From Thermodesulfobacteriota bacterium (GTDB lineage Bacteria > Desulfobacterota_D > UBA1144 > Nemesobacterales > UBA2774): DNA of 64,000 nucleotides. Both the position numbers and the translations under genes were made by a program. The notes beneath the pieces are model-generated. The model was given only the letters and a program-made list of their open reading frames with translations. It had not been told where the DNA came from and did no database searches. Below, piece by piece: positions 38,226-51,814 of the stretch. Location of the stretch: NCBI GenBank assembly GCA_965216785.1, contig OZ244197.1, forward strand, positions 1,856,001 through 1,920,000, in the 5' to 3' direction. Within the stretch, counting starts at the first letter, position 1. Each line of letters opens with the position of its first letter.

Positions 38226-39374
38226 TTGAGCGGTCGTCTTAGAAAACTATTTCTCGGCATAATTACGGTGATATTTATACTGCTGGCTGCAGAGGGGGTA
38301 GCCAGGATATTCTTTAACCCGACGGATTATTTATGGCGGAGACTGGTTCCGGACGACATGTTAAGACACAGAGTGGAGCCCAATACCAGGGGCCACGATG
38401 CTTGGGGTTTTAGAAACAGATTGGTGCCTGCCCACGCTGACATTGTAGCGCTCGGCGATTCGCAGACATACGGTACAAGCTCACTGGCAAAGCACTCCTG
38501 GCCTTCTATCCTGGGTGAGTTAAAAGGTCAGGAAGTATATAATATGTCCCTGGGCGGCTACAGTCCTGCCGAATATCTATACTTGATGGAAGATAAGGCC
38601 CTTGGTTTAGGACCAAACCTCATAATTGCCGGATTCTACTTGGGAAACGATCTTACCGATACTTATACTGCAGTATACAGTGTTCCGTACTGGAAGGATT
38701 TAAGAAACCCGGACATTGCTTCCATGCACGCACAAGTATCGCCCAATCAGAATAAAGCGTCACTCAAAAAGAACCCTCGGGCATCATTTATGAAGCAAAT
38801 CTATTTAATTGCTGATTGGTTTGCAGGAAACAGCGTCCTATACAGGATAGTGAATACATCATCTCTCGGAGATTATATAAGACAGAAAAAAATGATAGGG
38901 GCAGGGTTAGAAGTAGTGATGTTCGAGGATAAAGAGAATGATATCTACACCGGATTCACGCCTGGAAGATGGTTAGATAATCTTGATTTAAAAAACCCTG
39001 AGGTACAGGAAGGACTCGGGCTTACGCTTAATTTCTTTAATCAGATGAATGAACTAGCAGAGAGAAACAATGTCCGGTTTTTGGTTGTCTTAATTCCTAC
39101 AAAGGAGAGCGTGTTCGCAGATTTTATAGAAGGGAATAGTCGTTTGGAAAGCTCAGAAAAAATTGACCGTTTAATTGAGGCCGAAAGACAGATAAACAAT
39201 ATTGCAAAATCGTATTTTAAAGAGCATGATATTTCTTATCTGGATGTATTGAATCCGCTTAAAGAGGCTGTACATAACGAACAGTTATACCCCAATAACT
39301 ATAGTAGCCATCCAAATAAAAACGGAAACAGGATAATGGCCGGGTCTATTGCGCAGTGGATGGATAGTAGATAG
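38226..39374 (+). CDS. Membrane-anchored SGNH/GDSL-fold protein (AlgX/AlgJ-like)
   Basis: N-terminal TM ending AEGVAR; ALGDSQTYG, NMSLGGYS, YLGND, C-terminal HPN. Confidence 0.8.
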   Translation: MSGRLRKLFLGIITVIFILLAAEGVARIFFNPTDYLWRRLVPDDMLRHRVEPNTRGHDAWGFRNRLVPAHADIVALGDSQTYGTSSLAKHSWPSILGELKGQEVYNMSLGGYSPAEYLYLMEDKALGLGPNLIIAGFYLGNDLTDTYTAVYSVPYWKDLRNPDIASMHAQVSPNQNKASLKKNPRASFMKQIYLIADWFAGNSVLYRIVNTSSLGDYIRQKKMIGAGLEVVMFEDKENDIYTGFTPGRWLDNLDLKNPEVQEGLGLTLNFFNQMNELAERNNVRFLVVLIPTKESVFADFIEGNSRLESSEKIDRLIEAERQINNIAKSYFKEHDISYLDVLNPLKEAVHNEQLYPNNYSSHPNKNGNRIMAGSIAQWMDSR

Positions 39375-39634
39375 TAAAACCTACATTTACCCGGCATTTC
39401 GAATATACATATTACTATTTACTCATAACCCCTCCTTGGCCCTAATTGTCAATAACACCCAAATGTTTTTTCCCCAATTAATAGTACTTTTGGAATCAAT
39501 ATCTGATCATAAAATCCATCTAAAGCACTGAATCCAAACGATTTTAACAATAAATATGGCAATTAATAGGGGGCAGTATGTAGTAGCATTACTTAGTAAT
39601 AATTAGTAAATATTTGCGATGATCAAAAAAGTAC

Positions 39635-39663
39635 TTGACTGAAATCGTAAACGTTTATATATT
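39635..39663 (+). promoter_or_regulatory. Sigma70-type promoter for the collagen-like gene and probably the downstream cluster
   Basis: TTGACT-N17-TATATT. Confidence 0.55.
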
Positions 39664-39689
39664 TGAGTGAATTTAAACGGAGGATGGAG

Positions 39690-40763
39690 ATGATTAGATC
39701 AATTACTCGTGGAACTCTAGTTCTACTGCTGGCTATATCTGTAAACACATTTGCAGCTCAACCGGAAGTAACTGTAACAGAAGTATTCGTTGATTTTGAT
39801 ACCGAGACAATCACAATCATGGGTGATAACTTTGATCTTGGCCCTAATCCGCTCAATGTTACATTAGGTGCCTATGGCAGCCTAAATATAGTTTCTGCCG
39901 AACCAAATTTAATAATTGTCGACTTTCCAGCAGGCGGCCTGCTGGCTGGTGATTTTCTTTTAACGGTATCCAGCGGGCCAGGCCAAAGAAAAAATGACGA
40001 ACATGTCGTAACTGTTGGAGCAACCGGGCCTGAAGGACCGGAAGGCACGCCCGGAGAGCAAGGCCCCCAGGGTGCGCAAGGCCCACAAGGAGAGCCGGGT
40101 CCTGAAGGTCCTCAGGGAGAGCCTGGGCCAGAGGGCCCGCAAGGAGAGCCCGGACCACCAGGGCCTCAGGGTGATGCCGGACCCCCGGGACCGCAAGGTG
40201 ATCCTGGTATGAATGGTGTAGAAGGGCATCCGGGACAGCCTGGTCCACAAGGCGAACAAGGACCTCAGGGTGATACTGGACCACCAGGACCGCAGGGTGA
40301 TGCCGGACCTCCGGGACCACAAGGTGATCCGGGTCCCCAGGGTATTCAAGGACCCCCGGGACCACAAGGTGACACAGGACCCCAGGGGATTCAAGGGCTT
40401 CCCGGACCGCCAGGGCTGCAGGGCAATCCCGGACCCCCGGGCCCAAAGGGAGATCCAGGACTACAAGGAGAGACCGGACCAGAGGGCCCGCAAGGAATCC
40501 CCGGACCGTCGGGAACATGGAGTTTCTTTACAGGCAACTGTCCAACCGGTGGTAATGCATGTCAATTTACGGCATCCTGTGGAGCTGGCGAAACAGCGGT
40601 ATCCGGAGCTTGCGGGCTTTTAACCGGGAGTCAAAATAGCAGGGATATTATGTATACCGGTCCTAATCCGTTAGACACAACTCAATGGATTTGCAGATTT
40701 GACAGGGGTGGAGGTGCAGCTTTTACAGTAGACTACGGGGTATTTTGTGTTCCAAATTCTTAA
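39690..40763 (+). CDS. Secreted collagen-like protein
   Basis: GGAGG RBS before ATG 39690; signal peptide; beta-rich N-domain; ~55 uninterrupted Gly-X-Y triplets (40017-40511); Cys-containing C-domain. Confidence 0.9.
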
Positions 40764-40867
40764 CCATCGGCTCTGCTGGATAAAATATATACCAAAATAA
40801 TATGCAATATTGTAATCGTGTATGCTCATACGGTATATTTACGCAATAAATACGGAGCTCGGTGATA

Positions 40868-41125
40868 ATGAACGAAAAACCTACTATAGCTGAAGATATT
40901 GATATTAATGAGGTAGAGGACGGCTACGTTATTTACCAAAAGGAAAATGACAAGGTTCACTACCTGAACAAGACTGCCGTGCTTGTACTCGAATCCTGCA
41001 CCGGGAAAAACACTGCTGCTGATATAGAGGTGATTGTAAAGGAGGCGTATAAGCTTCCTGAAGCACCACAAAAGGAAGTCGCCGACTGCCTCGATACACT
41101 CTTTCAAGAAGGTCTGATTAAATAA
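40868..41125 (+). CDS. PqqD-family RiPP recognition element (RRE)
   Basis: EVEDGYVIY...VHYLNKTAVLVLESCTG...VADCLDTLFQEGLI; about 85 aa, typical three-strand, three-helix pattern; alternative GTG start at 40862. Confidence 0.88.
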   Translation: MNEKPTIAEDIDINEVEDGYVIYQKENDKVHYLNKTAVLVLESCTGKNTAADIEVIVKEAYKLPEAPQKEVADCLDTLFQEGLIK

Positions 41126-41958
41126 ATTACGAACGTAAGTACACGCTGCTCGACACGGTAATCACAATACGTACTGAAAGCGAGGTACTGGCGCGCCGTC
41201 TTGATTTTATAGTACAAGAGGCGGAGCACACGCTTCACCCCCTAAAAGACGCTACATACGAATTCATACTCAGGGACGGCGCTTACGAGATAAGGAAGGA
41301 TGGAAGTCTTTGTTTCTCCTCTTCCGACCTCTCAGACGCAGTCTTTAATCTGCAGTGGCTTATTCATAAGGAAGTATTGAAGAACGTTACAGAGTCTATA
41401 CGTATTCATGCGGGATGCGGGGAGCTCGACGGAAGGAGGTTTCTCGTCGCGGGCGACAAGGGGGCGGGCAAGACGACGCTCATGGTACGTCTATTGTTCG
41501 AGGGATTCCGCGTCATCGGTGATGAGCTGGTACTGGTCAGGGACAGGAGAGCAATCCCATTTCCCAGAAGGTTTCACATCAAACAAGAAAGTATGAACCT
41601 GCTGCCCGAGCTTAACAGCCTGTTTGCTTCCCTGCCATACAATATGACAAGCTACGGCCATAAGATGTTTTCATTCACTCCTCAGGATGCCGGATATGAG
41701 TGGAAGATCGACGAGGGTGACATTCATTCTATTTTTTATCTGGAACCCAACCACGGAGGGCAGACGCGCATAGAGGAATGCCCGAAATATATGATGGTCA
41801 ATAGGGTTATGCCTATGAGTTTTCTGTCTGAGACCGAGGATCATATGAAGATAAACCAGCTCTGTAATATGATTGATCGAGCAAACTGTTATATTTTGCA
41901 TGTTGGAGACCTTGAAGGGGCGGTTTCCACTATACAGGAAAAAATGTCTGTGCTATAA
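41122..41958 (+). CDS. HPr-kinase-related P-loop kinase
   Basis: IHAG, Walker A GDKGAGKTT, IGDELVLV, PFPRRF; the frame is open from ATA 41122 (overlapping the PqqD TAA), while the ORF track starts at TTG 41377. Confidence 0.8.
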   Translation: MNYERKYTLLDTVITIRTESEVLARRLDFIVQEAEHTLHPLKDATYEFILRDGAYEIRKDGSLCFSSSDLSDAVFNLQWLIHKEVLKNVTESIRIHAGCGELDGRRFLVAGDKGAGKTTLMVRLLFEGFRVIGDELVLVRDRRAIPFPRRFHIKQESMNLLPELNSLFASLPYNMTSYGHKMFSFTPQDAGYEWKIDEGDIHSIFYLEPNHGGQTRIEECPKYMMVNRVMPMSFLSETEDHMKINQLCNMIDRANCYILHVGDLEGAVSTIQEKMSVL

Positions 41959-42003
41959 TGCGTAATTAGTATTATTAGACCTGCTATAAAGGAGGAACGT
42001 TAC

Positions 42004-42591
42004 ATGAGCGAGAAAAAATTTATAGATGAAGTTAATCCCGAAAGGCGCGAGTTTTTAGAGAAAGTGACCAAGGGAGCTTTTATCATCCCTACTGTAATAT
42101 CGGTGATGATGCTGAATCAGAAGCTTAACCTAACGACGGCCAACGCACAGAGCAACCTACCACCGTGCCTGTCTTGTGAGACTTTAATCTCCACCCCGGA
42201 CGGGAACGTCACAATAGTTGATTTAAAACCTGGGATGAAGGTCTATACCCTCGATACTAAAGGAAACAAGGTTGTAGAAGAGCTTGAGCTCGTATCAAAA
42301 GTAACGGTCCCTGAGACTCATACGCTCTTCAGTCTATGTTTTGGCGGCGGTACAGAGCTATTAGTTTCCGGTGCTCATCCGACAGCGGACGGCAGATATA
42401 TATATGATCTCAAACCGGGCGATATGATCGACGGCGCTGAGCTCTTATCCATCGAAAAGGTTAGCTACACAGCCGGATATACATATGACCTGCTACCGGC
42501 GGGAGATACTGGATGTTACTGGGCTGACGGGGTTCTTTTAGGCAGCACGCTAGCCGCAGAGTCAGAGAGCAGAATACGGAAGGCCTCTTAA
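42004..42591 (+). CDS. Precursor-like peptide 1 fused to a C-terminal Hint domain
   Basis: GGAGG RBS; 48-aa leader with ERREFL; core QSNLPP; Hint starts at Cys55 (42166): CLSCETLISTPDG, LVSGAHP, TYDL, YWADGVLLGS. Confidence 0.85.
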   Translation: MSEKKFIDEVNPERREFLEKVTKGAFIIPTVISVMMLNQKLNLTTANAQSNLPPCLSCETLISTPDGNVTIVDLKPGMKVYTLDTKGNKVVEELELVSKVTVPETHTLFSLCFGGGTELLVSGAHPTADGRYIYDLKPGDMIDGAELLSIEKVSYTAGYTYDLLPAGDTGCYWADGVLLGSTLAAESESRIRKAS

Positions 42592-42642
42592 CAAGGCTCT
42601 AAGAGCTATAAAAACAGCACTTAAAAGAAGGAGGGTTCTTAC

Positions 42643-43227
42643 ATGAGCGAAAAAAAATTTATAGATGAAGTTAACCCCGAGAGACGCGAATTTCTGGAAA
42701 AAGTAACTAAAGGCGCATTTATTATCCCAACTGTCGTTTCTGTAATGATGTTGAATCAAAAACTTAACCTTACGACAGCCAACGCGGCGAGCAACATGAT
42801 TTGTCTTTCTTGCGAGACTTTAATATCTACGCCCGAAGGTGAAATTCGGGTAGTTGATTTGAAACCGGGAATGCTTGTCTTTACCCTGGACATGAACGGA
42901 AACAAGGTCATAGAGCGGTTAGAGCTAGTATCGAAAGTAACGGTCCCTGAAACTCATGTACTCTGCCATCTGGTTTTTAGTGATGGGAGAGAGCTCTTTG
43001 TGTCGGGTGGGCATCCGACAGCGGACGGTAGAGATGTTAACGAGCTTGCGCCGGGTGACATGCTCGACGGAGCGGAGGTGGTCTCTGTAGTGAATATTCG
43101 CTACATAGCCGGTCATACCTATGACTTGCTCCCTGCCGGAGAGACGGGAAATTACTGGGCAAACGGTGTTCTGTTGGGCAGCACGCTCGCACCTGAGTCC
43201 GTGAGCAGAATACGGAAGGCCTCTTAA
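42643..43227 (+). CDS. Precursor-like peptide 2 fused to a C-terminal Hint domain
   Basis: Same leader with one substitution; core ASNMI; Hint starts at Cys54 (42802): CLSCETLISTPEG, FVSGGHP, TYDL, YWANGVLLGS. Confidence 0.85.
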   Translation: MSEKKFIDEVNPERREFLEKVTKGAFIIPTVVSVMMLNQKLNLTTANAASNMICLSCETLISTPEGEIRVVDLKPGMLVFTLDMNGNKVIERLELVSKVTVPETHVLCHLVFSDGRELFVSGGHPTADGRDVNELAPGDMLDGAEVVSVVNIRYIAGHTYDLLPAGETGNYWANGVLLGSTLAPESVSRIRKAS

Positions 43228-43337
43228 CTGTAAGGCAAGTTAAGCTAAGGTTTCAGCCTGTTACATTAAGTGCATAATTCATCTTTATGCTATGTAGAGC
43301 TTTCATCCTGTATTAAAATTTTTCCAATGGGTAAAAA

Positions 43338-44444
43338 TTGAGCGATATCCTGTTTTCCGCCTCTATGATCGTCCGAAACGAGGAAAAATTCCTTGAGGGA
43401 TGCCTTGAGTCCATTAGAAACGTCGTGGACGAAATAGTAATAGTCGATACAGGCTCAGTAGACGGCACAAAGGAGATTGCCTTAGAGTACGGTGCGAGGG
43501 TATTTGATTTCCCGTGGAACGGAGATTTCGCGGCAGCGCGTAACGAAGCCCTTCGTCACTGCAGGGGCGAATGGATACTGTATATAGACGCTGACGAACG
43601 GGTGAGGCCCGCCGAAAAGTCCTACGTCACTGAAATTCTCTCGGACGTATCTAAAGTCGCATATACACTTTTGTTTTACCCGATAGTGGGCTATACGGGA
43701 TACCGTGAGCACCGCATCTTCCGAAGCGATCCCCGCATACGTTTTCAGGGGGTTATACACGAAGGTATGCTTTCCGCGATCCAGGACGTTGCGCGCGAGG
43801 ACGGGCTCGAAATCGGTTATTGCGATCTTGTAATAGACCACCTGGGATACGAGGGTGACCTTACGCATAAGCACGAAAGGAACCTGCCCCTACTGAGAGA
43901 TCAGATTGAAAACGACCCAGAAAGAATTTACCTCAGATGGCAGCTCGGCGCGGCGCTTAAGGGACTTGGGGACTTGGATGGTGCGGAGAGGGCGTGGATG
44001 GACGCGATCGACATTATACGCGGAAAGGAAACGGTAGGCCCGGAAGACAGCCATCCGTACTACGACATGATCCGCCTCCTGAATGAGAGTGAGCGTGACT
44101 ACACAGAGCTTCTGGCCGAGTCTTCAAAGCTGTTTCCGGACAACTATTTAATAACCTGGACCAAGGCCATGACGCTGATGCACGATCAAAGATTTGAGGA
44201 TGCTGCGCGGGTGTTTGAATCTCTCGCCGCGATAGATCCGGCAAGCCTTGACGGGGAGATACTTGCCTATAACGCGCGCATATTCGATGAGCTTTCCTAT
44301 GAACCCCTCGCCACGTGTTATTTTAAGCTCGGCAAGCTAGAAGAGAGCGAGAAATATTACGCGCTCGCGCTCAGGTGTGATCCTGAAAATCAGCAATACC
44401 GTACGAAGCTCAAGTTCGTTTCAGCGTTGGTAAATAAATCGTGA
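43338..44444 (+). CDS. GT2 glycosyltransferase with C-terminal TPR repeats
   Basis: SMIVRNEE...CLESI...DEIVIVDTGS.DGT, FAAARN, IDADE, F.GVIHE, HLGY; TPR-like tail. Confidence 0.9.
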   Translation: MSDILFSASMIVRNEEKFLEGCLESIRNVVDEIVIVDTGSVDGTKEIALEYGARVFDFPWNGDFAAARNEALRHCRGEWILYIDADERVRPAEKSYVTEILSDVSKVAYTLLFYPIVGYTGYREHRIFRSDPRIRFQGVIHEGMLSAIQDVAREDGLEIGYCDLVIDHLGYEGDLTHKHERNLPLLRDQIENDPERIYLRWQLGAALKGLGDLDGAERAWMDAIDIIRGKETVGPEDSHPYYDMIRLLNESERDYTELLAESSKLFPDNYLITWTKAMTLMHDQRFEDAARVFESLAAIDPASLDGEILAYNARIFDELSYEPLATCYFKLGKLEESEKYYALALRCDPENQQYRTKLKFVSALVNKS

Positions 44445-44450
44445 TTGATT

Positions 44451-45182
44451 ATGAAAGATGAACCGCTTGTATCATGCCTTTGCGTTACAAGAGACAGAGT
44501 GCCTATGCTCAAAAGAGCGATAAGGTCGTTCAGGGACCAGGATTACGGGCACAAGGAGCTGGTGATCGTGTATGAGAGCGACGACGGTGAAACAGAGGAA
44601 TTTTTAAGAGAAGTTTCAGACGGTAACATTCTCAAAATAAAAGTTCCGGCAGAGCCCAGACTCACGCTCGGAGAGCTCAGGAACCTGGCTCTTAAAGAGA
44701 GTACGGGAGAGTATTTTTGCCAGTGGGACGACGACGATTTCTATCATAATCAGAGGGTTTCATTCCAGATGGAAGTACTGCGCGAGTCTGCTATGCCCGC
44801 CTGCGTAATGGTCCACTGGCTCATATACGATTTGGCGCATGCTCAGGCCTACGTGTCTAATATGAGGCCTTGGGAAGGCAGTCTGCTCTGTAAAAAATCA
44901 CTCATAGATGAAGAGCTTAAGTACGAGGATAAAGGCAGGGGGGAGGACACGGCTTTAATAAGTGAGCTGTTTACGAGAAACCTCGCATTTCCCGTAATTA
45001 TGCCAAAGCTATATATATACGTATACCATGGGGGTAATGTGTGGACAGATGAGCATTGGGGCAGAATATTCAGCGCGAGCACGAAGCTCTCTGAGGAGTC
45101 GAGCAGGGTGATAAGGGACATATTGGACGGGAAATACACAGGTGATGAAGCCTCCGGGCTGCTGGATGATATAACTGAATGA
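44451..45182 (+). CDS. GT2 glycosyltransferase
   Basis: PLVSCLCVT, LGELRN, QWDDDD, GED. Confidence 0.85.
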   Translation: MKDEPLVSCLCVTRDRVPMLKRAIRSFRDQDYGHKELVIVYESDDGETEEFLREVSDGNILKIKVPAEPRLTLGELRNLALKESTGEYFCQWDDDDFYHNQRVSFQMEVLRESAMPACVMVHWLIYDLAHAQAYVSNMRPWEGSLLCKKSLIDEELKYEDKGRGEDTALISELFTRNLAFPVIMPKLYIYVYHGGNVWTDEHWGRIFSASTKLSEESSRVIRDILDGKYTGDEASGLLDDITE

Positions 45183-45209
45183 AATCACCCGCATAACGAA
45201 CTAAGAATT

Positions 45210-46958
45210 ATGGCGATACCCAAAATATTGTATCAGACCTATAAGACCAAAGAGATCCCGGAGCGGCTCGAAGAGTATCGCCGTAAGCTGCTAGAGCTTC
45301 ACCCCGGCTGGGAATACCGGTTTTACGGAGACGACGAGTGCAGGGATTTAGTGAAGAGGTTTTTACCCTCGTTTCTCCCGGTATATGATAGCTGCTCGAT
45401 ACCGGCTCAGAAAGCCGATATATTCCGCATCATAGCGGTCTGGGCGCTAGGCGGGTTTTACCTGGATATCGACGTCGAATGTATACGGAGCGTCGATCAG
45501 CTCTGTGAATTCCACTTAGTATTTGCCGAGGAGCTCACACTTACTCAAGAGCAGGCGAAGGAACTGGGTCACAGGGACCGCCTAAGGGTGGGGAACTTTA
45601 TGTTCGGCAGTGAGCAGGGCCATCCTTTTCTTCTGCGTATTCTAAGGAAAATGGCGGAGGAAAGCAGGCGTGAGATTCGCTCTGAGAACGATGTGCTGGA
45701 ATCCACAGGGCCGGGCCTTGTCACTACCGTATACCATGATGCGTGTGAGGAGCTAAGGGACATCGTACTGCTGCGGAACATCGACCGTGAATGCCCTGTC
45801 ACTGGCGGTGTAGCCTGCCACTTCGGAAATTATGCCATACACCACCATGAAGGCTCCTGGAGGTGGGGGCATGTTAAATCTCCCAAGCTGAAAAACTTTG
45901 CCCGAAGTCAAAAGATCACACCGACTGAGATAAACAAAATCTGCAGCGAGATCGATTCTGAATTAGAAAGGACAAGTAGACCCGAGGATATTTATATATT
46001 AAGAGCATACAAGGAGAAACCATACGATGGCTTAACCTACGTGTTTGACCGAACTTCGGGGCTCGGCATCATTTCTGACAATACGAGCAGTCTTGAAGAT
46101 AAAAAAGTCCTCGTGAGCGGGATGCCCATTATGTTTACCGACAAAGTGTCTAAGCAAAATACCAATGTTATATACACGACATTTGAAAGTACGTCGCTTC
46201 CCCCAGATTGGGTGAGTGCGATAAACGGCTTATTTAACTACTGTATAGTTCCGCACCAGCACGTAAAGAAAGTGTTTGAGGATTCGGGGGTGAGCATACC
46301 AGTCAGCGTCATACACCAGGGATTTACTAGGTATAGGAGGAAAGATAGGAAAGCTCTTGACGATAAGACATACAAGATCGGATTTCTCGGGGTCCCTGTA
46401 GAGAGGAAGAATCTATTCAAGCTATATCAGGCTTGCGCACATCTTCTGGCGGATATACCTGAACTGAGGCTTAGTGTTCATATCCCGGATTATTACGGTG
46501 GGATGAATGTGGAATATCTGGGGATGGTCAAAATGTCACCCTTCGTAGATTGGACCGAAGGTCATCTGGGCGAGAATGAGATCGCAGAGTGGTACAGCGG
46601 GCTTTCGTGTTATGTATTTCCGTCGAGCGGGGAAGGGTGGTCCTTTACTCCGCGGGAAAGTCTTTATCTCGGAGTACCGACTATTTTGTCGGATATCCCT
46701 GTTCACAGGGAGCTTATTGAATCCGGTTACTGCAAAGCGATACCCGTAAGTGGTAGGGAAGAGGCGGTATTTAACTCAAAGGTGTCCGGACAATGGGACA
46801 GGGTTGCGGTTGAGGACATAGAAAACACGATACGAGACCTGTATCTGAATTACGGGAGTTATTATATTAAGGCTATTCAGGGAAGCCGCTGGATAGAGAA
46901 TAAATGGACCAATGAAAGCACTCAGCAGTTACTGCTCGATTATTTGACAAAGGTGTAA
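45210..46958 (+). CDS. Two-domain glycosyltransferase: GT32/OCH1-like DXD domain plus GT4 (GT-B) domain
   Basis: IPKILYQT, KADIFR...GGFYLDID, TGPG; then YTTFES, RKN, FPSSGEGWSFTPRE. Confidence 0.85.
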   Translation: MAIPKILYQTYKTKEIPERLEEYRRKLLELHPGWEYRFYGDDECRDLVKRFLPSFLPVYDSCSIPAQKADIFRIIAVWALGGFYLDIDVECIRSVDQLCEFHLVFAEELTLTQEQAKELGHRDRLRVGNFMFGSEQGHPFLLRILRKMAEESRREIRSENDVLESTGPGLVTTVYHDACEELRDIVLLRNIDRECPVTGGVACHFGNYAIHHHEGSWRWGHVKSPKLKNFARSQKITPTEINKICSEIDSELERTSRPEDIYILRAYKEKPYDGLTYVFDRTSGLGIISDNTSSLEDKKVLVSGMPIMFTDKVSKQNTNVIYTTFESTSLPPDWVSAINGLFNYCIVPHQHVKKVFEDSGVSIPVSVIHQGFTRYRRKDRKALDDKTYKIGFLGVPVERKNLFKLYQACAHLLADIPELRLSVHIPDYYGGMNVEYLGMVKMSPFVDWTEGHLGENEIAEWYSGLSCYVFPSSGEGWSFTPRESLYLGVPTILSDIPVHRELIESGYCKAIPVSGREEAVFNSKVSGQWDRVAVEDIENTIRDLYLNYGSYYIKAIQGSRWIENKWTNESTQQLLLDYLTKV

Positions 46959-47077
46959 GAATTTTAGATTATTGACTAATATTGATAACCGTCTTGTTTT
47001 ATCTGAAGCAATGTGTTAACTTAGAATCACTCTTTAAATGTTTACGCATTTGAAAATTGATAAAGGAGACTGGGAAT

Positions 47078-47248
47078 ATGAGCGACAAGAAATTTCCGGA
47101 GGACGTGAACTCCGAAAGACGCGAGTTTATAGAGAAAGTGACCAAGGGCGCTTTTATTATCCCCACTGTAATATCGGTGATGATGTTGAATCAGAAGCTG
47201 CACCTTACGACAGCAAACGCGAATAGTAACATCCCACCGCCACCTTAA
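47078..47248 (+). CDS. Stand-alone precursor-like peptide 3 (56 aa)
   Basis: AAAGGAG RBS; MSDKKFPEDVNSERREFIEKVTKGAFIIPTVISVMMLNQKLHLTTANANSNIPPPP. Confidence 0.85.
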   Translation: MSDKKFPEDVNSERREFIEKVTKGAFIIPTVISVMMLNQKLHLTTANANSNIPPPP

Positions 47249-47322
47249 ATTGTGGTTTCGGTGATCTGAGCAGCTGGGTTCTGATATAACTTTTGAATAG
47301 TTTTAAAGGAGAACGGATATAA

Positions 47323-47502
47323 ATGAGTGACAAGAAATTTCCGGAGGACGTGAACTCCGAAAGGCGCGAGTTTTTAGAGAAAGTGACCAAGGGCGCTTTT
47401 ATCATCCCCACGGTAATATCAGTAATGATGCTGAATCAGAAGCTAAATCTGACGACAGCCAACGCACAGAGTAATATGACTATCATTAATGAACAGCCGT
47501 AA
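47323..47502 (+). CDS. Stand-alone precursor-like peptide 4 (59 aa, not in the ORF track)
   Basis: AAAGGAG RBS; hand translation MSDKKFPEDVNSERREFLEKVTKGAFIIPTVISVMMLNQKLNLTTANAQSNMTIINEQP. Confidence 0.85.
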   Translation: MSDKKFPEDVNSERREFLEKVTKGAFIIPTVISVMMLNQKLNLTTANAQSNMTIINEQP

Positions 47503-47821
47503 GCTTTAGCATGGAGCAGTATAAATTTATGGCTGTCGTTGATATCTATTAAAAAGTAAGTCCGGCTAGAACGGGGTTGGCGAATGGAGCTCGCCCTTCG
47601 TTTCCGGTAAATGTTTTATATCATTTCAATTTTAAGCTTATTTTGCTGAATTTTGCCAGAATAAGCTTATTCCATCCAAGCTCAAATTAATCTCAACTTA
47701 TCAGATACAATAGAGGTTTTAATAATAAGCCGTAATGAGAATTCTTCGGTCCCTTATATAAATCCTCATTATGTTTATAGTATTATGCTGAGGGTTGGCG
47801 CTCAGAGCGGGATAAAGGAAA

Positions 47822-49099
47822 ATGGTTCAGTACAAAAATCCGGAATGTAAACGCGGCGGTTATAACGGAGGATATCTACCCGACCGCACGCAGGAGCTTT
47901 TGCTCAGGGCATGTCTTCTTAAGGGAGACGAGGCCATTGATGCGTATCGTGAATGGAAGAGCTTAGTCGATCTTGATAACGTCGATCCCGGCTCATACCG
48001 TCTTTTCCCTCTCCTTTACATAAACTTGAAATCACAGGGCTTGGAAGAGCCGATGATGAATATCTTTAAGTGGGTCTACACAAAAACCCGTGAGAATAAC
48101 GAAATACTGCTGCGTAATCTCGGCCCCCTGCTGAAAGAATTCAACAACTGCGGGATCGAGGTCATATTGCTTAAAGGCGCCGGGCTGATTCTCACTTGCT
48201 TCCGGGATTATGGACTTCGCCCCATGGTGGATGCGGACCTTCTCGTTCCTACCGCGAAAACCGGGGACGCGATCGAGCTCATAACAGGACTTGGATGGGA
48301 TTCGTCCATAACACCGCTTAAGGGTTTTAAGGACATGAAGCTGCTGTCCCGGCTCGGATGGACCCCGGGGGACAGAAAGCTCGAGGACTTCACTGAAGAG
48401 TATTTTTGCGTGAGGCACGGGCAGGACTTTACAAACCCTGAGAAGTTCACGATAGACCTTCACTGGCACATGCTCCACGGGTATAACGAGCCTGACGCCG
48501 ACGCGGATTTCTGGCAAGGTGCTGGTACTGTAAACGTGGAAGGCGCGCAAGCGAGGGTACTCGATCCGGCTGATCTGCTTCTTCACGTCTGTTCACACGG
48601 AGTAAGATGGGACCCTCTTCCCGCTATTCGCTGGGTGGCGGATGCGGCATGGATAGTCGACGGCTCAGAAGGTGGTATTGATTGGGAGAGGTTTGTAGAT
48701 GTAACCGCTCGCCACGGTAAGGTGCTTTATGCAAGGGAAGCTATACGCTATTTGAACCGTTATTTGGTACACAAAGTTCCGCAGTCCGTACTAGATCGGC
48801 TAAACACCCTGCCGGTCACGAAAGCTCAATATTTGGAGTATCATATTAGGACGCGTCCGCCTGGAATACTCGACGGTTTTTATGAGCTGGGGTTTCTTTA
48901 CGATAATTATTCGAAGGTCAGTCAGGGTCAAAACCTTTATCGCAGACTCACCGGATACCCCCGGTTCCTTCAGCATGTGTTCGGTATGGAAAAGCTGCGG
49001 CATTTGGTATTGTACGCCGCGTTCGAGTTCGTACGCCGGGGCGCGCATCTGCCGGGCTTGGTGGTCAGGGGACTAAAGAACAAGCTCGTAAAGGGGTGA
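47822..49099 (+). CDS. Nucleotidyltransferase family protein (NTP_transf_5-like)
   Basis: ILLKGAGL, LRPMVDADLLV, IDLHW, LLHVCSHG, RWVAD, IDW motifs. Confidence 0.85.
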   Translation: MVQYKNPECKRGGYNGGYLPDRTQELLLRACLLKGDEAIDAYREWKSLVDLDNVDPGSYRLFPLLYINLKSQGLEEPMMNIFKWVYTKTRENNEILLRNLGPLLKEFNNCGIEVILLKGAGLILTCFRDYGLRPMVDADLLVPTAKTGDAIELITGLGWDSSITPLKGFKDMKLLSRLGWTPGDRKLEDFTEEYFCVRHGQDFTNPEKFTIDLHWHMLHGYNEPDADADFWQGAGTVNVEGAQARVLDPADLLLHVCSHGVRWDPLPAIRWVADAAWIVDGSEGGIDWERFVDVTARHGKVLYAREAIRYLNRYLVHKVPQSVLDRLNTLPVTKAQYLEYHIRTRPPGILDGFYELGFLYDNYSKVSQGQNLYRRLTGYPRFLQHVFGMEKLRHLVLYAAFEFVRRGAHLPGLVVRGLKNKLVKG

Positions 49100-49151
49100 G
49101 GTGGGAGGGGCGGATTGTTTTATTCCGCAAACGTGTGTAGTTCCGATGCAA

Positions 49152-50159
49152 TTATCTTGTCAGGCGCCAGTAAAGCCTTCTAAACTTTCTTAGTATCTTA
49201 CTTTCGATTACCGTCAATGTTACACCTTTTAAAGTTCTAAGCGGGGATCCCTTAATAACGTCTTTCTCTAGATCACTGATTTTATAACGCTTCTGCTCAC
49301 CTGCAGCAGGGCTTGTATTTTCGAGTATGGTTTTCATTCTTTCTTGGAAGAGTTTGTCATCTGCATCCGTACCGCTCGTGTCCGATACCAATATGTGACC
49401 CCTGGGGGTTCTTAGGTACTTTCTCGCGCCCCCTCCGGGGGCGCAAAGGTGCCAGGCATTGGCCTCTGTAGTGACCATGAGTGTGTAATTTTTTTCAACG
49501 AGCCTCGCGCATAAATCGCTCTCTTCCCGGTGCGCCTGGTCCGAGTACCCGTCAACGGCCCATCCCCCTGCTTCCTCTACCGCTTTGCGGCGGTAGCATA
49601 TCGCCCCACCGAGGAGACTATCGACTTCTATGACTTCCGGATCATTATAATAGTGGTGGCCCTGCAGTTTCCAGGTCAGCTCATCAAGAGTAGATGTGAA
49701 TGACCTTTCCGCCAGATTCAAATCCAAGCTCGCCTTTTTCGCTTGAGGTACTGGAAAGCACCCGCCCACTGCAGCAAGCGGCCTGTCGGCGAAAAAATGA
49801 AACGGCTTTAGTATGTTTTCAATGAAACTTGCGTCCGGAAGCATATCGTCATCTATCCTCAGTATGAACTCGATCGATTGCGGCACGGCCTCCATTGCCT
49901 GCTGGTGTCTCTTCCAGCCATCTTTAGTACGAATGATTATGATCTCGTGACCTATGTTTCTGGCAACCGTAAGAAGGTCGGTAATCGCATCGTCTCTCTC
50001 GACAGGTGAATCGCTCTGGTCGTTGATTACAATCATAAAATTCGTAAAAGTTTGATTGAGCAGAGAGTTCAGCAGCACTGCAAGGTAGGAAGGACGGTTC
50101 TTCGTTGGTATGGCTACAGCTATTTTTTCGTCCTTTTTGATTTGCCTTAGTCTATCCAT
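49152..50159 (-). CDS. GT2 glycosyltransferase
   Basis: VAIPTKNR, ILRIDDD, REESDL. Confidence 0.85.
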   Translation of the reverse strand: MDRLRQIKKDEKIAVAIPTKNRPSYLAVLLNSLLNQTFTNFMIVINDQSDSPVERDDAITDLLTVARNIGHEIIIIRTKDGWKRHQQAMEAVPQSIEFILRIDDDMLPDASFIENILKPFHFFADRPLAAVGGCFPVPQAKKASLDLNLAERSFTSTLDELTWKLQGHHYYNDPEVIEVDSLLGGAICYRRKAVEEAGGWAVDGYSDQAHREESDLCARLVEKNYTLMVTTEANAWHLCAPGGGARKYLRTPRGHILVSDTSGTDADDKLFQERMKTILENTSPAAGEQKRYKISDLEKDVIKGSPLRTLKGVTLTVIESKILRKFRRLYWRLTR

Positions 50160-50288
50160 CTTCGTTCGTTTTAAAGCTTAGTGTTTAAATCACAATCGCT
50201 AAGCCAGGAGCTTCCTCTTTCAAAATTTCAGCTACCACCTTAGCTTAATCTTAACTATTAATAAACCAAGAGGCCTAACGTAATGATT

Positions 50289-51662
50289 TTACTTATTCAA
50301 AGCCACAAACCTCTTTACTTTCCCTGTTTCAGGATTGCGGGGCAGGGAGTCTATGATTTCCACTATAACTTCCGGGTCTTTGAGGCCGTCTTTTTCAAGC
50401 TGCTGTTTGATAGATGAAATAATTTCTTCCATATTCGGCTCGCCATTGCAAACGAGCTTTACAATACCGCCGCGCTCGGTCTGAACGACTTGATATTCCT
50501 CTACTTCTTTTACTAGGTCTAGGATATCGCTGAAAGCCATCGGATGTACCCTGACGTTACCGTACTGAAACCAGTTGGTGGCTCTGCCGAGGATATTTGT
50601 AACTCTACTATATGCCGGGTATTCACCAAAGTCCCGGCCGATCTCGACAACATCGTCTACTTCATACCGTATCATGGGGCATGATTTATTAACTAAACTG
50701 GTTGCCAGAACCCTGGCCGCGTCTCTTGCATCCTCGACCGGGTTGTCTTTCTCATCCACCAGCTCGAGTATTACAGCGTCCTCGCATATCACCATGCCGG
50801 GGCTATCGGCCAGCTCGACCGCGATTTGACCGATCTCTACGCATCCCCAGCTGTTGCATGTTTTCACCCCCCACGCTTTTTTAATGCGGGCGCGCATAAT
50901 GTCGTCAAGGGGGCCGGAATTGGTGCTTACCCAGCGGGGTGATATATCCAGCTCTCCCTTCAATTGGGCTGAAGCAAGCTCAGCGGTTGAGGATGCGAAC
51001 GCCATAATGTAAGTGGGCTGGAAACTGTTTAACTTTTCGCATTGCTCCGTCATGGGGTCAGTGGAACCCAGGCTTAAGAGCTCGAATTCCGCAAGCGGCT
51101 TGCTTGGGAAAAGAATTCTGCTTCCGTGAAGTAAGGTGGGGGCCTCTACGGTGGCAAGTTTCATAGGCCCCTTGTAACCTGCTTTTTGCTCCAGATCTAT
51201 AAAGTTACGGTACGTAAGACAGATTGATTCACTAACAAAATCCGTGTCCCAAAGAAAGAGACCTCTCTTGCCCGTTGAGCCTCCGGTTGCTATAAAGAGG
51301 TACTTGTCATTGTAGAAGGGGTTTTCAATCTCCCCTTTTCTTAACTTGTCCAGGTGATTCTCGGCAATGTCGTAAGATAATTCCGGGACTGCGAGAAAAT
51401 CTTCCCAACGGTCCATGTGCTCTGTTTTGCTGGTCGGCGGGATGCTATGAAGGTCCTCAAGGTTAAACACAGTAGTGTCTACAGATTTAAGGACATCACC
51501 GTAAAACACAGTACGCTCCTTGGCTAAAGTCAATATGTCCCTTAACGCCATTGTCTGATGATTAACGAGCTCGTCTTTACTCCAGGATAGATGCTTTAGG
51601 TGCTCCGGCATTCTACTCTGGGCGTCTGTCCAAACAGACTGAATTATTTCCTCGTATGTGAT
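50289..51662 (-). CDS. PaaK/CapK-like adenylate-forming (acyl-CoA ligase family) enzyme
   Basis: ATGGSTGKRG, WGCVE, PMIRYEVDD, ILGR, TGKVK; start uncertain (ATC 51662 sits 7 nt after GGAGG). Confidence 0.8.
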   Translation of the reverse strand: MTYEEIIQSVWTDAQSRMPEHLKHLSWSKDELVNHQTMALRDILTLAKERTVFYGDVLKSVDTTVFNLEDLHSIPPTSKTEHMDRWEDFLAVPELSYDIAENHLDKLRKGEIENPFYNDKYLFIATGGSTGKRGLFLWDTDFVSESICLTYRNFIDLEQKAGYKGPMKLATVEAPTLLHGSRILFPSKPLAEFELLSLGSTDPMTEQCEKLNSFQPTYIMAFASSTAELASAQLKGELDISPRWVSTNSGPLDDIMRARIKKAWGVKTCNSWGCVEIGQIAVELADSPGMVICEDAVILELVDEKDNPVEDARDAARVLATSLVNKSCPMIRYEVDDVVEIGRDFGEYPAYSRVTNILGRATNWFQYGNVRVHPMAFSDILDLVKEVEEYQVVQTERGGIVKLVCNGEPNMEEIISSIKQQLEKDGLKDPEVIVEIIDSLPRNPETGKVKRFVALNK

Positions 51663-51814
51663 ATAGACACCTCCGCCAATAAGTCTAATTCTCACATTAC
51701 CGTGTATGCGCAGTAATAGCAATAAATTATAGAATAACGCATCTGTTTATATGAAGCGCTCTTCGGCCAATAAAATTATAACTATATTATTAATATCGGC
51801 ATTATAATTACTGC

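What the first reader, a model, noticed from the sequence alone, without database searches (positions are those of the whole stretch)
47078..47502. Two Hint-less paralogues end near the Hint cleavage point; one is missed by the ORF track
Seen: genes of 56 and 59 aa, each with its own AAAGGAG RBS. They match the leader-core part of the fusions, whose predicted cleavage products are 54 and 53 aa. The 59-aa gene falls below the ORF-track cutoff. Inference: the functional unit is the ~55-aa peptide and the Hint is an optional module, so the cluster would make cores with both free and Hint-processed C-termini.
Basis: partly seen in the sequence, partly recalled or inferred. Interest (0 to 1): 0.7.

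Follow-up and report, generated by a model that had tools for sequence, protein, structure and literature searches.

The report
Peptide precursors with optional self-cleaving tail
Two tiny genes here are intact, strongly conserved copies of a peptide precursor that the same gene cluster also encodes fused to an intein-like domain, so the bacterium likely makes small phosphate- and sugar-decorated peptides with two kinds of tail end, a pairing I found in none of the papers I searched.

Summary
Confirmed. 47078-47248 (56 aa) and 47323-47502 (59 aa) are intact paralogues of the N-terminal part of two Hint fusions (42004, 42643), with no Hint remnant after their stops. They are not pseudogenes: 60 of 82 intact copies across 18 genomes are Hint-less, with pN/pS 0.12, an RBS in 58 of 59 and a conserved upstream promoter-like site. 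Several complete operons and three outside genomes have only Hint-less copies, so the Hint is an optional, probably later, addition. Correction: about 48 aa look like a leader (Tat-like RRxFL, RRE-type FxxPxV, ANA), so the product is likely a 5-11-residue core around an invariant Ser, not 55 aa. The operon (RRE, HprK-like kinase, three glycosyltransferase genes, PF14907) works like the Bacillota LPP clusters (PMC13381572) but lacks their peptidase and exporter. Export, modification and Hint cleavage are inferred, not shown; expression is untested. The scan noted a Hint-fused precursor of this kind before on other DNA (e1-7873733). New variant of a known kind.

The parts
47078..47248 (+). Hint-less precursor 1, 56 aa: 48-aa leader (RR at 14-15, FxxPxV at 26-31, ANA at 46-48) plus predicted core NSNIPPPP
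   Evidence: positional orthologue ending SNLPPPP* in same-genus G002
47323..47502 (+). Hint-less precursor 2, 59 aa: same leader plus predicted core QSNMTIINEQP
   Evidence: orthologue ending SNITMMNEQP* in G002; 11 synonymous vs 4 non-synonymous differences to precursor 1
47063..47068 (+). AAGGAG ribosome-binding site of precursor 1
47306..47311 (+). AAGGAG ribosome-binding site of precursor 2
46993..47022 (+). Conserved promoter-like element (CTTG-N16/18-TGnTA..T) ahead of the short-precursor array; function inferred
   Evidence: 17 of 17 first-in-array copies, 0 of 47 other short copies, 0.4% of shuffles; pattern fitted by eye on the same sequences
42004..42591 (+). Precursor-Hint fusion A, 195 aa: leader, predicted core QSNLPP, Hint from Cys55 (Ser122, His125, Asp162; ends GVLLGSTL plus 12 aa, no His-Asn)
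42643..43227 (+). Precursor-Hint fusion B, 194 aa: leader, predicted core ASNMI, Hint from Cys54
   Evidence: sister of fusion A in the Hint tree, support 98/84
41931..41959 (+). Sigma-70-like site at the kinase 3' end, ahead of the Hint fusions; function inferred
   Evidence: at least 9 of 12 consensus matches in 12 of 12 loci, but it overlaps coding sequence and the stop codon
40862..41125 (+). Stand-alone RRE (PqqD family), the only one found in the genome
   Evidence: PF05402 30.3 bits, cut-off 23.4
41122..41958 (+). HprK-like kinase, 278-codon frame, probably starting at an ATA that overlaps the RRE stop
   Evidence: TIGR04352 E 3.5e-19, 69 bits, under the cut-off of 200; junction conserved in 13 of 13 loci
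43338..44444 (+). GT2-TPR glycosyltransferase, protein/peptide O- or S-glycosyltransferase-like
   Evidence: best solved relatives GmaR E 5.9e-30 and SunS E 2.4e-16
44445..45182 (+). GT2 glycosyltransferase
   Evidence: PF00535; found in 12 genomes' loci
45210..46958 (+). Two-domain glycosyltransferase (PF04488 DXD-type plus PF00534 group 1)
   Evidence: found in 17 genomes' loci
47822..49099 (+). PF14907 nucleotidyltransferase-like protein (same Pfam family as LppN)
   Evidence: 119.5 bits, cut-off 31.2; found in 15 genomes' loci; lppN is PF14907

Best explanation
The two short genes are intact members of a multi-copy precursor family with a near-invariant 48-residue leader and a short variable tail, and the operon likely phosphorylates and then glycosylates the invariant serine of that tail, with the Hint domain as an optional add-on that is predicted to cut itself off and change the peptide's C-terminus. 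Shown: gene anatomy, conserved operon, purifying selection, Hint-free operons, Hint fold with Cys1/His/Asp kept and His-Asn absent. Inferred, in order: (1) the RRE binds FxxPxV and presents the precursor to the kinase, which phosphorylates the Ser two residues after ANA, as LppK does on Ser3 of an AQSN-starting core (about 0.75); (2) the PF14907 protein and the glycosyltransferases add sugars to that phosphate and to Ser/Thr of the tail (about 0.7); (3) the RRxFL/hydrophobic/ANA leader doubles as a Tat signal and is removed by the housekeeping signal peptidase, which replaces the dedicated peptidase and exporter of LPP clusters and releases a core of 8 or 11 residues from the short genes (about 0.6); (4) fused copies form a thioester at Cys1 and release a 5- or 6-residue core (about 0.75), most likely onto an acceptor such as an envelope alcohol or amine, Hedgehog-fashion, rather than onto water (about 0.35-0.4).
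For: Short copies are the majority and under selection: 60 of 82 intact copies in 18 genomes; pN/pS 0.12 between genomes; RBS 58 of 59 against 13% background; Ser at ANA+2 in 82 of 82; 58 distinct tails among 60. Dedicated promoter-like element in 17 of 17 arrays. Operon order RRE-kinase-[0-2 Hint fusions]-GT2/TPR-GT2-GT32/GT4-[short copies]-PF14907 is conserved; four operons contiguous from RRE to PF14907 carry no Hint fusion (L037, L038, L039, L045); three outside genomes have one Hint-less copy each and no Hint match. The same tail QSNMTVP occurs free (G004) and fused (G032). On the leader DNA tree genus needs 4 changes (the minimum) and Hint status 10. LPP precedent: RRE, HprK-like kinase and NTP transferase; conserved N-terminus, variable C-terminus; Ser3 of AQSNWK phosphorylated (PMC13381572). 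PsmK/PsmN precedent for hexose on phosphoserine (PMC6993621). GT2-TPR nearest GmaR and SunS; a GT-TPR enzyme glycosylates Thr/Ser of GPT repeats (PMC7157674) and three tails in genus g5 are GPT repeats. RR and F invariant, 13-residue hydrophobic stretch in all 82; the leader profile also picks up an ordinary 481-aa twin-arginine protein (L085); TatC and bacterial signal peptidase I are in the genome, the archaeal type is not found. Hint: Cys1, His and Asp invariant in 110 of 110, Hint fold, pN/pS 0.36; 111 of its 120 closest outside relatives have an N-terminal hydrophobic stretch and carry it at the C-end.
Against: No expression, binding, modification, export or cleavage was observed; no RNA holder was listed. 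The leader is far more conserved than signal peptides usually are (own knowledge), has Glu where the recalled Tat consensus has Ser/Thr before RR and Lys after FL, and is long. The spacing of FxxPxV to the Ser is 6 residues longer than in the LPP motif, and the likeness was judged by eye only. Kinase and GT2-TPR score far below their family cut-offs. LppN showed no activity in the LPP paper. One outside operon (L084) has no kinase or PF14907 gene within the 14.4 kb held, and its precursor has Ser before, not after, the last Ala-x-Ala-like stretch. Block B has Ser in place of Thr, and the residue before Cys1 is Pro, Ile or Val in 78 of 123 fusions, which I recall slows N-terminal cleavage in engineered inteins. 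No acceptor for the thioester was identified. Three of the 60 short ORFs are broken Hint fusions and at least two further short copies in relatives are decayed. A single gain of the Hint is only weakly supported (78/31), and the leader tree has few resolved branches.
Confidence: 0.5

Rival explanations
1. Same precursors and modifications, but the Hint does no ligation: it hydrolyses to a free acid, or serves as a folded export passenger or delayed-release cap, so fused and short genes give chemically alike peptides.
For: The same tail occurs in both classes and many fused tails are prefixes of free tails. Hint-free operons exist, the Hint was lost outright in 3 copies, and no acceptor or sterol-recognition-like domain is evident: only 12-30 residues follow the fold.
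Against: If the product were the same, a 140-residue domain would be hard to keep, yet 13 genomes keep intact fusions with invariant catalytic residues and pN/pS 0.36. Fused tails are narrower in length (5-9) than free tails (5-30).
Confidence: 0.2
2. The leader is purely an enzyme-docking leader as in LPP and lasso peptides; the twin arginine is part of an RRE- or enzyme-binding helix, and cleavage (perhaps before A-x-S, as in LPP) and export use unlinked proteins, or the product stays in the cytoplasm.
For: Near-invariance along the whole leader; A-x-S junction shared with LPP, which is cut after Thr, three residues before Ser; Glu at two positions where the recalled Tat consensus differs.
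Against: No peptidase or ABC exporter among the 14 proteins scanned from 38226-51722; archaeal-type signal peptidase not found in the genome; RRxF, a hydrophobic stretch and ANA are all kept; the Hint's outside relatives are mostly signal-bearing proteins.
Confidence: 0.15
3. The peptide is a primer or scaffold for a surface glycan rather than a diffusible product: the leader stays on as a membrane anchor or the C-terminal module anchors it, and the sugar chain is the functional part.
For: Tails are low-complexity Pro/Gly/Asn/Thr/Asp spacers with no Lys, His, Trp or Tyr after the Ser; four or more glycosyltransferase domains, with extra GT10-sulfotransferase or Stealth genes in outside operons; outside precursors carry other C-terminal pieces: a hydrophobic tail (P0131, L084) or a Cys-rich domain (P0129).
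Against: ANA is invariant in the 82 intact copies, as expected of a cleavage site; several divergent cores per genome with their own promoter-like site fit a peptide library. This reading partly overlaps the best explanation.
Confidence: 0.12
4. The two short genes are truncated pseudogenes of the Hint fusions.
For: This happens in relatives: TGA exactly at Cys1 followed by a decayed half Hint in G022 and G030, and an insertion just after Cys1 in a second G022 copy.
Against: No Hint remnant here; 11 synonymous vs 4 non-synonymous differences between the two genes and pN/pS 0.12 over the short class; orthologues with matching C-terminal ends in G002; conserved upstream element; operons and genomes with only short copies.
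Confidence: 0.03

Closest known systems
Linear polyphosphorylated peptide (LPP) clusters of Bacillota, LppA/K/B/S/D/N (Popov et al., Nat Commun 2026, PMC13381572)
   Same: Discrete RRE, HprK-like kinase and PF14907 protein with no macrolactam cyclase; one to several precursors with conserved N-terminus, an aromatic-x-x-P-x-V motif and variable C-terminus; an A-x-S junction, with AQSN in both LppA and two of the four window copies; glycosyltransferase-rich setting.
   Different: No archaeal-type signal peptidase and no MsbA-like exporter in the cluster; leader 48 aa against 27, with a twin-arginine helix, a hydrophobic insert and ANA; cores 5-30 aa; three fixed glycosyltransferase genes inside the operon; Gram-negative host group; Hint fusions (no 'intein' in the paper's main text, no 'Hint' or 'intein' in 6 searchable supplements).
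Paeninodin/pseudomycoidin-type lasso peptide tailoring, PsmK and PsmN (PMC6993621)
   Same: HprK-family kinase phosphorylates a Ser and an uncharacterised nucleotidyltransferase is needed for hexose addition to it.
   Different: No lasso cyclase or B2 peptidase in the cluster; the Ser lies at the start of the predicted core, not at the C-terminus.
Hint-fold autoprocessing domains: bacterial intein-like domains (Pfam Hint_2 PF13403), Tetrahymena BUBL1 BIL2, Hedgehog C-terminal domain
   Same: Hint fold; Cys1, block B His and block F Asp kept; placed C-terminal to the cargo; no C-terminal His-Asn, as expected for N-terminal cleavage without splicing.
   Different: Cargo is a short peptide precursor; Ser replaces block B Thr; only 12-30 residues follow the fold; no C-extein; nearest relatives are C-terminal modules of uncharacterised signal-bearing proteins named from Chloroflexi-group and candidate phyla.
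GT2-TPR protein/peptide glycosyltransferases: SunS of glycocins, GmaR, SgtA acting on BclA3 (PMC7157674)
   Same: GT2 plus TPR architecture, encoded beside a short or GPT-repeat substrate.
   Different: Below the SunS family cut-off; cores lack the cysteines of glycocins; combined here with an RRE, kinase and PF14907.

Membership tests
LPP (PMC13381572) | Discrete RRE | tested here: met
   PF05402 above cut-off at 40862-41125
LPP (PMC13381572) | HprK-like kinase | tested here: met
   Only family hit is TIGR04352, E 3.5e-19, though under its equivalog cut-off
LPP (PMC13381572) | PF14907 NTP transferase | tested here: met
LPP (PMC13381572) | Archaeal-type signal peptidase I (LppS) in the cluster | tested here: not met
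   None among 14 cluster proteins; TIGR02228 not found in the 92%-complete genome
LPP (PMC13381572) | MsbA-like ABC exporter in the cluster | tested here: not met
   None among the 14 proteins scanned from 38226-51722; flanking families of relatives were not all annotated
LPP (PMC13381572) | Precursor motif YxxPxVLxHQxIxFETxxS | tested here: not met
   By eye: FxxPxV, a Q-x-L-x-L-T-T stretch and A-x-S are alike, but Pro-to-Ser spacing is 6 residues longer; no profile comparison was run
LPP (PMC13381572) | Kinase-dependent phosphorylation of the core Ser | not testable with these tools
   Ser invariant in 82 of 82 copies is only consistent with it
Lasso peptides | Macrolactam cyclase and B2 peptidase | tested here: not met
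   None among 14 cluster proteins; PF13471 gives one under-cut-off hit elsewhere in the genome
Glycocins | SunS-family glycosyltransferase | tested here: inconclusive
   TIGR04195 69 bits against cut-off 350; SunS is among the best solved relatives
Glycocins | Cys-containing, disulfide-bonded core (feature recalled) | tested here: not met
   One Cys in all 60 short tails, and that one is Cys1 of a broken fusion
Inteins (splicing) | Hint fold with Cys1, block B His, block F Asp | tested here: met
   roles from PMC4031507; Ser instead of Thr at B7
Inteins (splicing) | C-terminal His-Asn and a +1 nucleophile with C-extein | tested here: not met
   Fold ends G[VI][LP][LMI][GA]STL in 21 of 21
Hedgehog-type autoprocessing | Transfer of the N-terminal part to a small-molecule acceptor via a C-terminal recognition region | not testable with these tools
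   Only 12-30 residues follow the fold; no acceptor identified
Tat substrates | RRxFL motif, hydrophobic stretch and A-x-A site (consensus recalled) | tested here: met
   RR, F and ANA in all 82 (ANA-spaced RR was also the filter for the set), best 13-residue hydropathy 2.2-2.7; R, R, F invariant in 10 of 10 including distant members
Tat substrates | Tat-dependent export | not testable with these tools
   TatC and signal peptidase I are present, which is necessary, not sufficient

The most novel reading that the evidence does not exclude
A ribosomal peptide system that uses a fused Hint domain as a built-in C-terminal ligase: Tat-exported, phosphoglycosylated 5-9-residue cores are coupled through a thioester to a cell-envelope acceptor (a bacterial counterpart of Hedgehog cholesterolysis) or closed into rings (a natural counterpart of intein-based peptide cyclisation), while Hint-less paralogues release the same kind of core free.
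Probability: 0.3. Interest if true: 0.85.

Novelty: new variant of a known kind. Interest (0 to 1): 0.62.

Why it matters
It extends the newly described LPP logic (RRE, HprK-like kinase, PF14907) to a Gram-negative lineage with a different export and cleavage solution, and it supplies natural matched pairs of the same core with and without a Hint domain. That makes two open questions directly testable in one small operon: what the final LPP-type product is when the partner glycosyltransferases are present (LppN was inactive without them in the published work), and what a widespread class of C-terminal, non-splicing bacterial Hint domains does with its thioester. I found no paper joining a Hint or intein-like domain to a natural ribosomal peptide precursor in the searches, which cover only the open library.

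Tried and rejected
Selenocysteine read-through at the TGA found at Cys1 in G022 and G030: rejected, because the Hint after it is decayed and stops half way (22 non-synonymous vs 16 synonymous differences in the remnant, 6.5 vs 22.5 in the leader). G017's three frameshifted short genes as evidence of decay: set aside, because its RRE, two-domain glycosyltransferase and PF14907 genes are broken into 2-5 frames as well. Pfam and NCBIfam name no family for the short peptides (weak TIGR04117, E 0.085); the Atlas gave 30 unnamed clusters, leads only. Single-sequence fold of the Hint failed (pLDDT 43); the alignment-based model was used instead. PDB sequence searches with the RRE and with the precursor profile found no significant match, so no link to LppB/LppA structures. 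The consensus promoter scan over 39300-49300 was not above chance (17 vs 14.2, sd 4.1), and its TTGACA site at 46944 was not reproduced upstream of relatives' arrays (3 of 17 at 9 or more matches vs 18% in shuffles). No RNA holder listed, which says nothing on expression. P0134 and P0135 were judged chance hits and P0125 a frameshifted Hint fusion. L085 is an ordinary secreted protein, not a family member. The collagen-like gene at 39663-40763 has no counterpart in the relatives' loci and was left out of the system. One search failed on a miscounted pattern and was rerun.

Full report
Observation. They match the first 54 and 53 residues of two Hint fusions at 42004-42591 and 42643-43227; 42 of 59 columns are invariant among the four. 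The genome holds these four copies and two Hint domains and no further match. Nothing Hint-like follows either stop. Contigs from runs of other studies cover the stops without change there (X5 both, X8 the second; the one change shared by all X5 contigs inside a gene, at 47424, is a synonymous third position by my reading).

Setting. The genes lie in an operon-like run: RRE (PF05402), HprK-like kinase (TIGR04352, under cut-off), the two fusions, a GT2-TPR, a GT2, a two-domain glycosyltransferase, the two short genes and a PF14907 protein. Among the 14 proteins scanned from 38226 to 51722 there is no peptidase, lasso cyclase or ABC exporter. Named relatives are Candidatus Dadabacteria / Thermodesulfobacteriota.

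Relatives. The precursor is found in 19 of 61 genomes searched, 18 of 32 in the same family, and 20 of 120 across the phylum. From 29 fetched stretches plus the window I extracted 94 leader hits, 23 with a Hint. I dropped 12: four hits from three frameshifted genes in G017, two from one gapped gene in G002, three at contig ends, one frameshifted duplicate fusion and two decayed copies. Of the 82 left, 60 are short (18 genomes) and 22 fused (13 genomes). The gene order is conserved, with 0-2 fusions after the kinase and one to several short copies before PF14907. Four operons contiguous from RRE to PF14907 have no fusion (L037, L038, L039, L045). Three outside genomes, named as Syntrophobacteraceae (L082), another Dadabacteria (L083) and a deltaproteobacterium (L084), have the related operon, one Hint-less precursor each and no Hint match; in L083 the short gene sits in the slot the fusions occupy here. 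Among 130 stored proteins of 100 aa or more that a permissive leader profile hit, 126 carry the Hint; the others are one frameshifted fusion, one Cys-rich extension and two chance hits.

The short genes are functional. Between genomes pN/pS over the leader is 0.12 for short and 0.08 for fused copies (uncorrected, pairs not independent; the short set includes the three broken fusions below); the two window genes differ by 11 synonymous and 4 non-synonymous changes. An RBS precedes 58 of 59 short copies against 13% of random positions. Same-genus G002 has both short genes with matching ends, PPPP* and NEQP*. A promoter-like element at 46993-47022 precedes the first short copy in 17 of 17 arrays and none of 47 other short copies; I fitted the pattern by eye on those sequences, so the count is partly circular. 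True truncations exist and look different: TGA at Cys1 with a decayed half Hint in G022 and G030, and an insertion just after Cys1 in a second G022 copy, all outside the operon. Expression itself is untested.

Anatomy. Conservation is near total from the RR to ANA-x-S and collapses after it: Ser in 82 of 82, 58 distinct tails among 60 short copies, tails 5-30 aa (median 8) against 5-9 (median 6) in fusions, rich in Pro, Asn, Gly, Thr, Asp. QSNMTVP occurs both free and fused. This is a leader-plus-core pattern, so the product is likely 8 and 11 residues for the two genes here, not 55. The leader carries FxxPxV, close to the [Y/W]xxPx[L/V/I/F/A] RRE motif quoted in PMC13381572, and also RRxFL, a hydrophobic stretch and ANA, as in Tat signals (consensus recalled); its profile picks up an unrelated twin-arginine protein (L085). 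TatC and signal peptidase I are in the genome; the archaeal-type peptidase was not found.

The Hint. The alignment-based model is confident over the domain (pLDDT about 90-97) and matches inteins, BIL domains and the Hedgehog domain. Cys1, block B His and block F Asp are invariant in 110 of 110, the residues that PMC4031507 ties to the first acyl shift; His-Asn is absent and Ser replaces Thr at B7. That predicts N-terminal cleavage without splicing. Against easy cleavage, the residue before Cys1 is Pro, Ile or Val in 78 of 123 fusions (effect recalled). The 120 best outside relatives listed (of 337 found) all have Cys1, none has this leader, 111 have an N-terminal hydrophobic stretch by a crude hydropathy rule, and 91 of 105 measurable end within 6 residues of the last motif: a portable C-terminal module of probably exported proteins. 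In a tree of 21 fused and 48 outside Hints the fused ones form one side, with weak support (78/31); the two window Hints are sisters. On a 138-column leader tree genus needs 4 changes and Hint status 10, of which well-supported branches force only 2. I read this as one gain of the Hint in this family followed by duplication, exchange and loss; the direction rests mainly on the outside genomes and is likely, not proven.

Mechanism. Most likely the RRE docks the leader, the kinase phosphorylates the invariant Ser, PF14907 and the glycosyltransferases add sugars, Tat exports the product and signal peptidase I cuts after ANA. Precedents: LppK phosphorylates Ser3 of AQSNWK; PsmN is needed for hexose on phosphoserine; the GT2-TPR is nearest to GmaR and SunS, and SgtA, a GT-TPR enzyme, glycosylates GPT repeats like those in three g5 tails. 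Fused copies would release a 5-6-residue thioester. Since free copies already give a free acid, I favour capture by an acceptor over plain hydrolysis, but only modestly and with no acceptor in sight. All of these steps are inference.

Comparison and novelty. It works like an LPP cluster but is not a member: the dedicated peptidase, the exporter and the precursor motif as written are not met. It is not a lasso, glycocin or splicing-intein system. Papers seen: PMC13381572 (abstract, passages, sections 6, 7, 11, 12; term searches in 6 supplements, a seventh too large to read and the supplement store silent, so a mention there cannot be excluded); PMC4031507 (passages, section 4); PMC6993621, PMC7157674, PMC12710340, PMC7470986 (passages only). 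Searches for Hint or intein with RiPP terms returned no paper describing this pairing (none; 18, 60, 93, 96: listings only, none on topic by title and abstract start); two searches for the enzyme set and one for the host group gave no description of this cluster. Subscription journals are largely outside the library. Earlier notes of this scan on other genomes report a Hint-fused precursor with free copies (e1-7873733) and a Tat-leader glycosylation island (e1-6755456); I saw them after reaching my reading, and they are unchecked AI notes, not support.

Verdict. Observation confirmed, interpretation partly supported, new variant of a known kind, interest 0.62.

Noticed in passing
window 41122-41958 and 12 related loci: The kinase frame has no ATG, GTG or TTG until 41377, but opens at an ATA overlapping the RRE stop (A-TAA; A-TAG in L082) in 13 of 13 loci checked, suggesting a conserved non-standard start with translational coupling.
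   Followed up: partly
P0142-P0261 (Hint relatives outside the family): A large uncharacterised family of signal- or lipobox-bearing proteins, named from Chloroflexi-group and candidate phyla, ends in the same non-splicing Hint, mostly preceded by C-P-I so that a CxxC includes Cys1.
   Followed up: partly
L040:10029-10196 (G022) and L054:2795-2962 (G030): Orthologous stand-alone copies with TGA exactly at Cys1 and a decayed half Hint behind it, while the leader part stays under selection: a possible route from fused to short form.
   Followed up: yes
L040:8676-8846 (G022): A Hint fusion cut just after Cys1 by an element of about 1.3 kb with imperfect inverted ends; a short Hint remnant lies beyond it.
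   Followed up: partly
L026, L028, L029, L035, L036, L041, L043 (genus g3): A second GT2-TPR paralogue sits inside the short-gene array, followed by a precursor that mostly has a longer Lys-rich N-terminus, hinting at dedicated enzyme-precursor pairs.
   Followed up: no
L030, L031, L033 (genus g5) and window 39663-40763: Three tails are collagen-like GPT repeats of 18-30 residues; the window has a separate collagen-like gene just upstream of the RRE that is not found in relatives' loci.
   Followed up: partly
L084:7968-8201 (P0131) and P0129: Distant precursors carry other C-terminal pieces: GPN repeats plus a hydrophobic PAINLLLL tail, or a Cys-rich domain; L084 shows no kinase but has a Stealth-family gene, L082 a GT10-sulfotransferase fusion.
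   Followed up: partly
L046-L049, L052 (G013, G032, G004, G028): Hint fusions also occur as stand-alone genes away from the operon.
   Followed up: no
window 49152-51722 (- strand): A GT2 and a PaaK/F390-synthetase-like acyl-CoA ligase gene face the operon; not conserved beside it in relatives apart from a GT2 match in L038.
   Followed up: no
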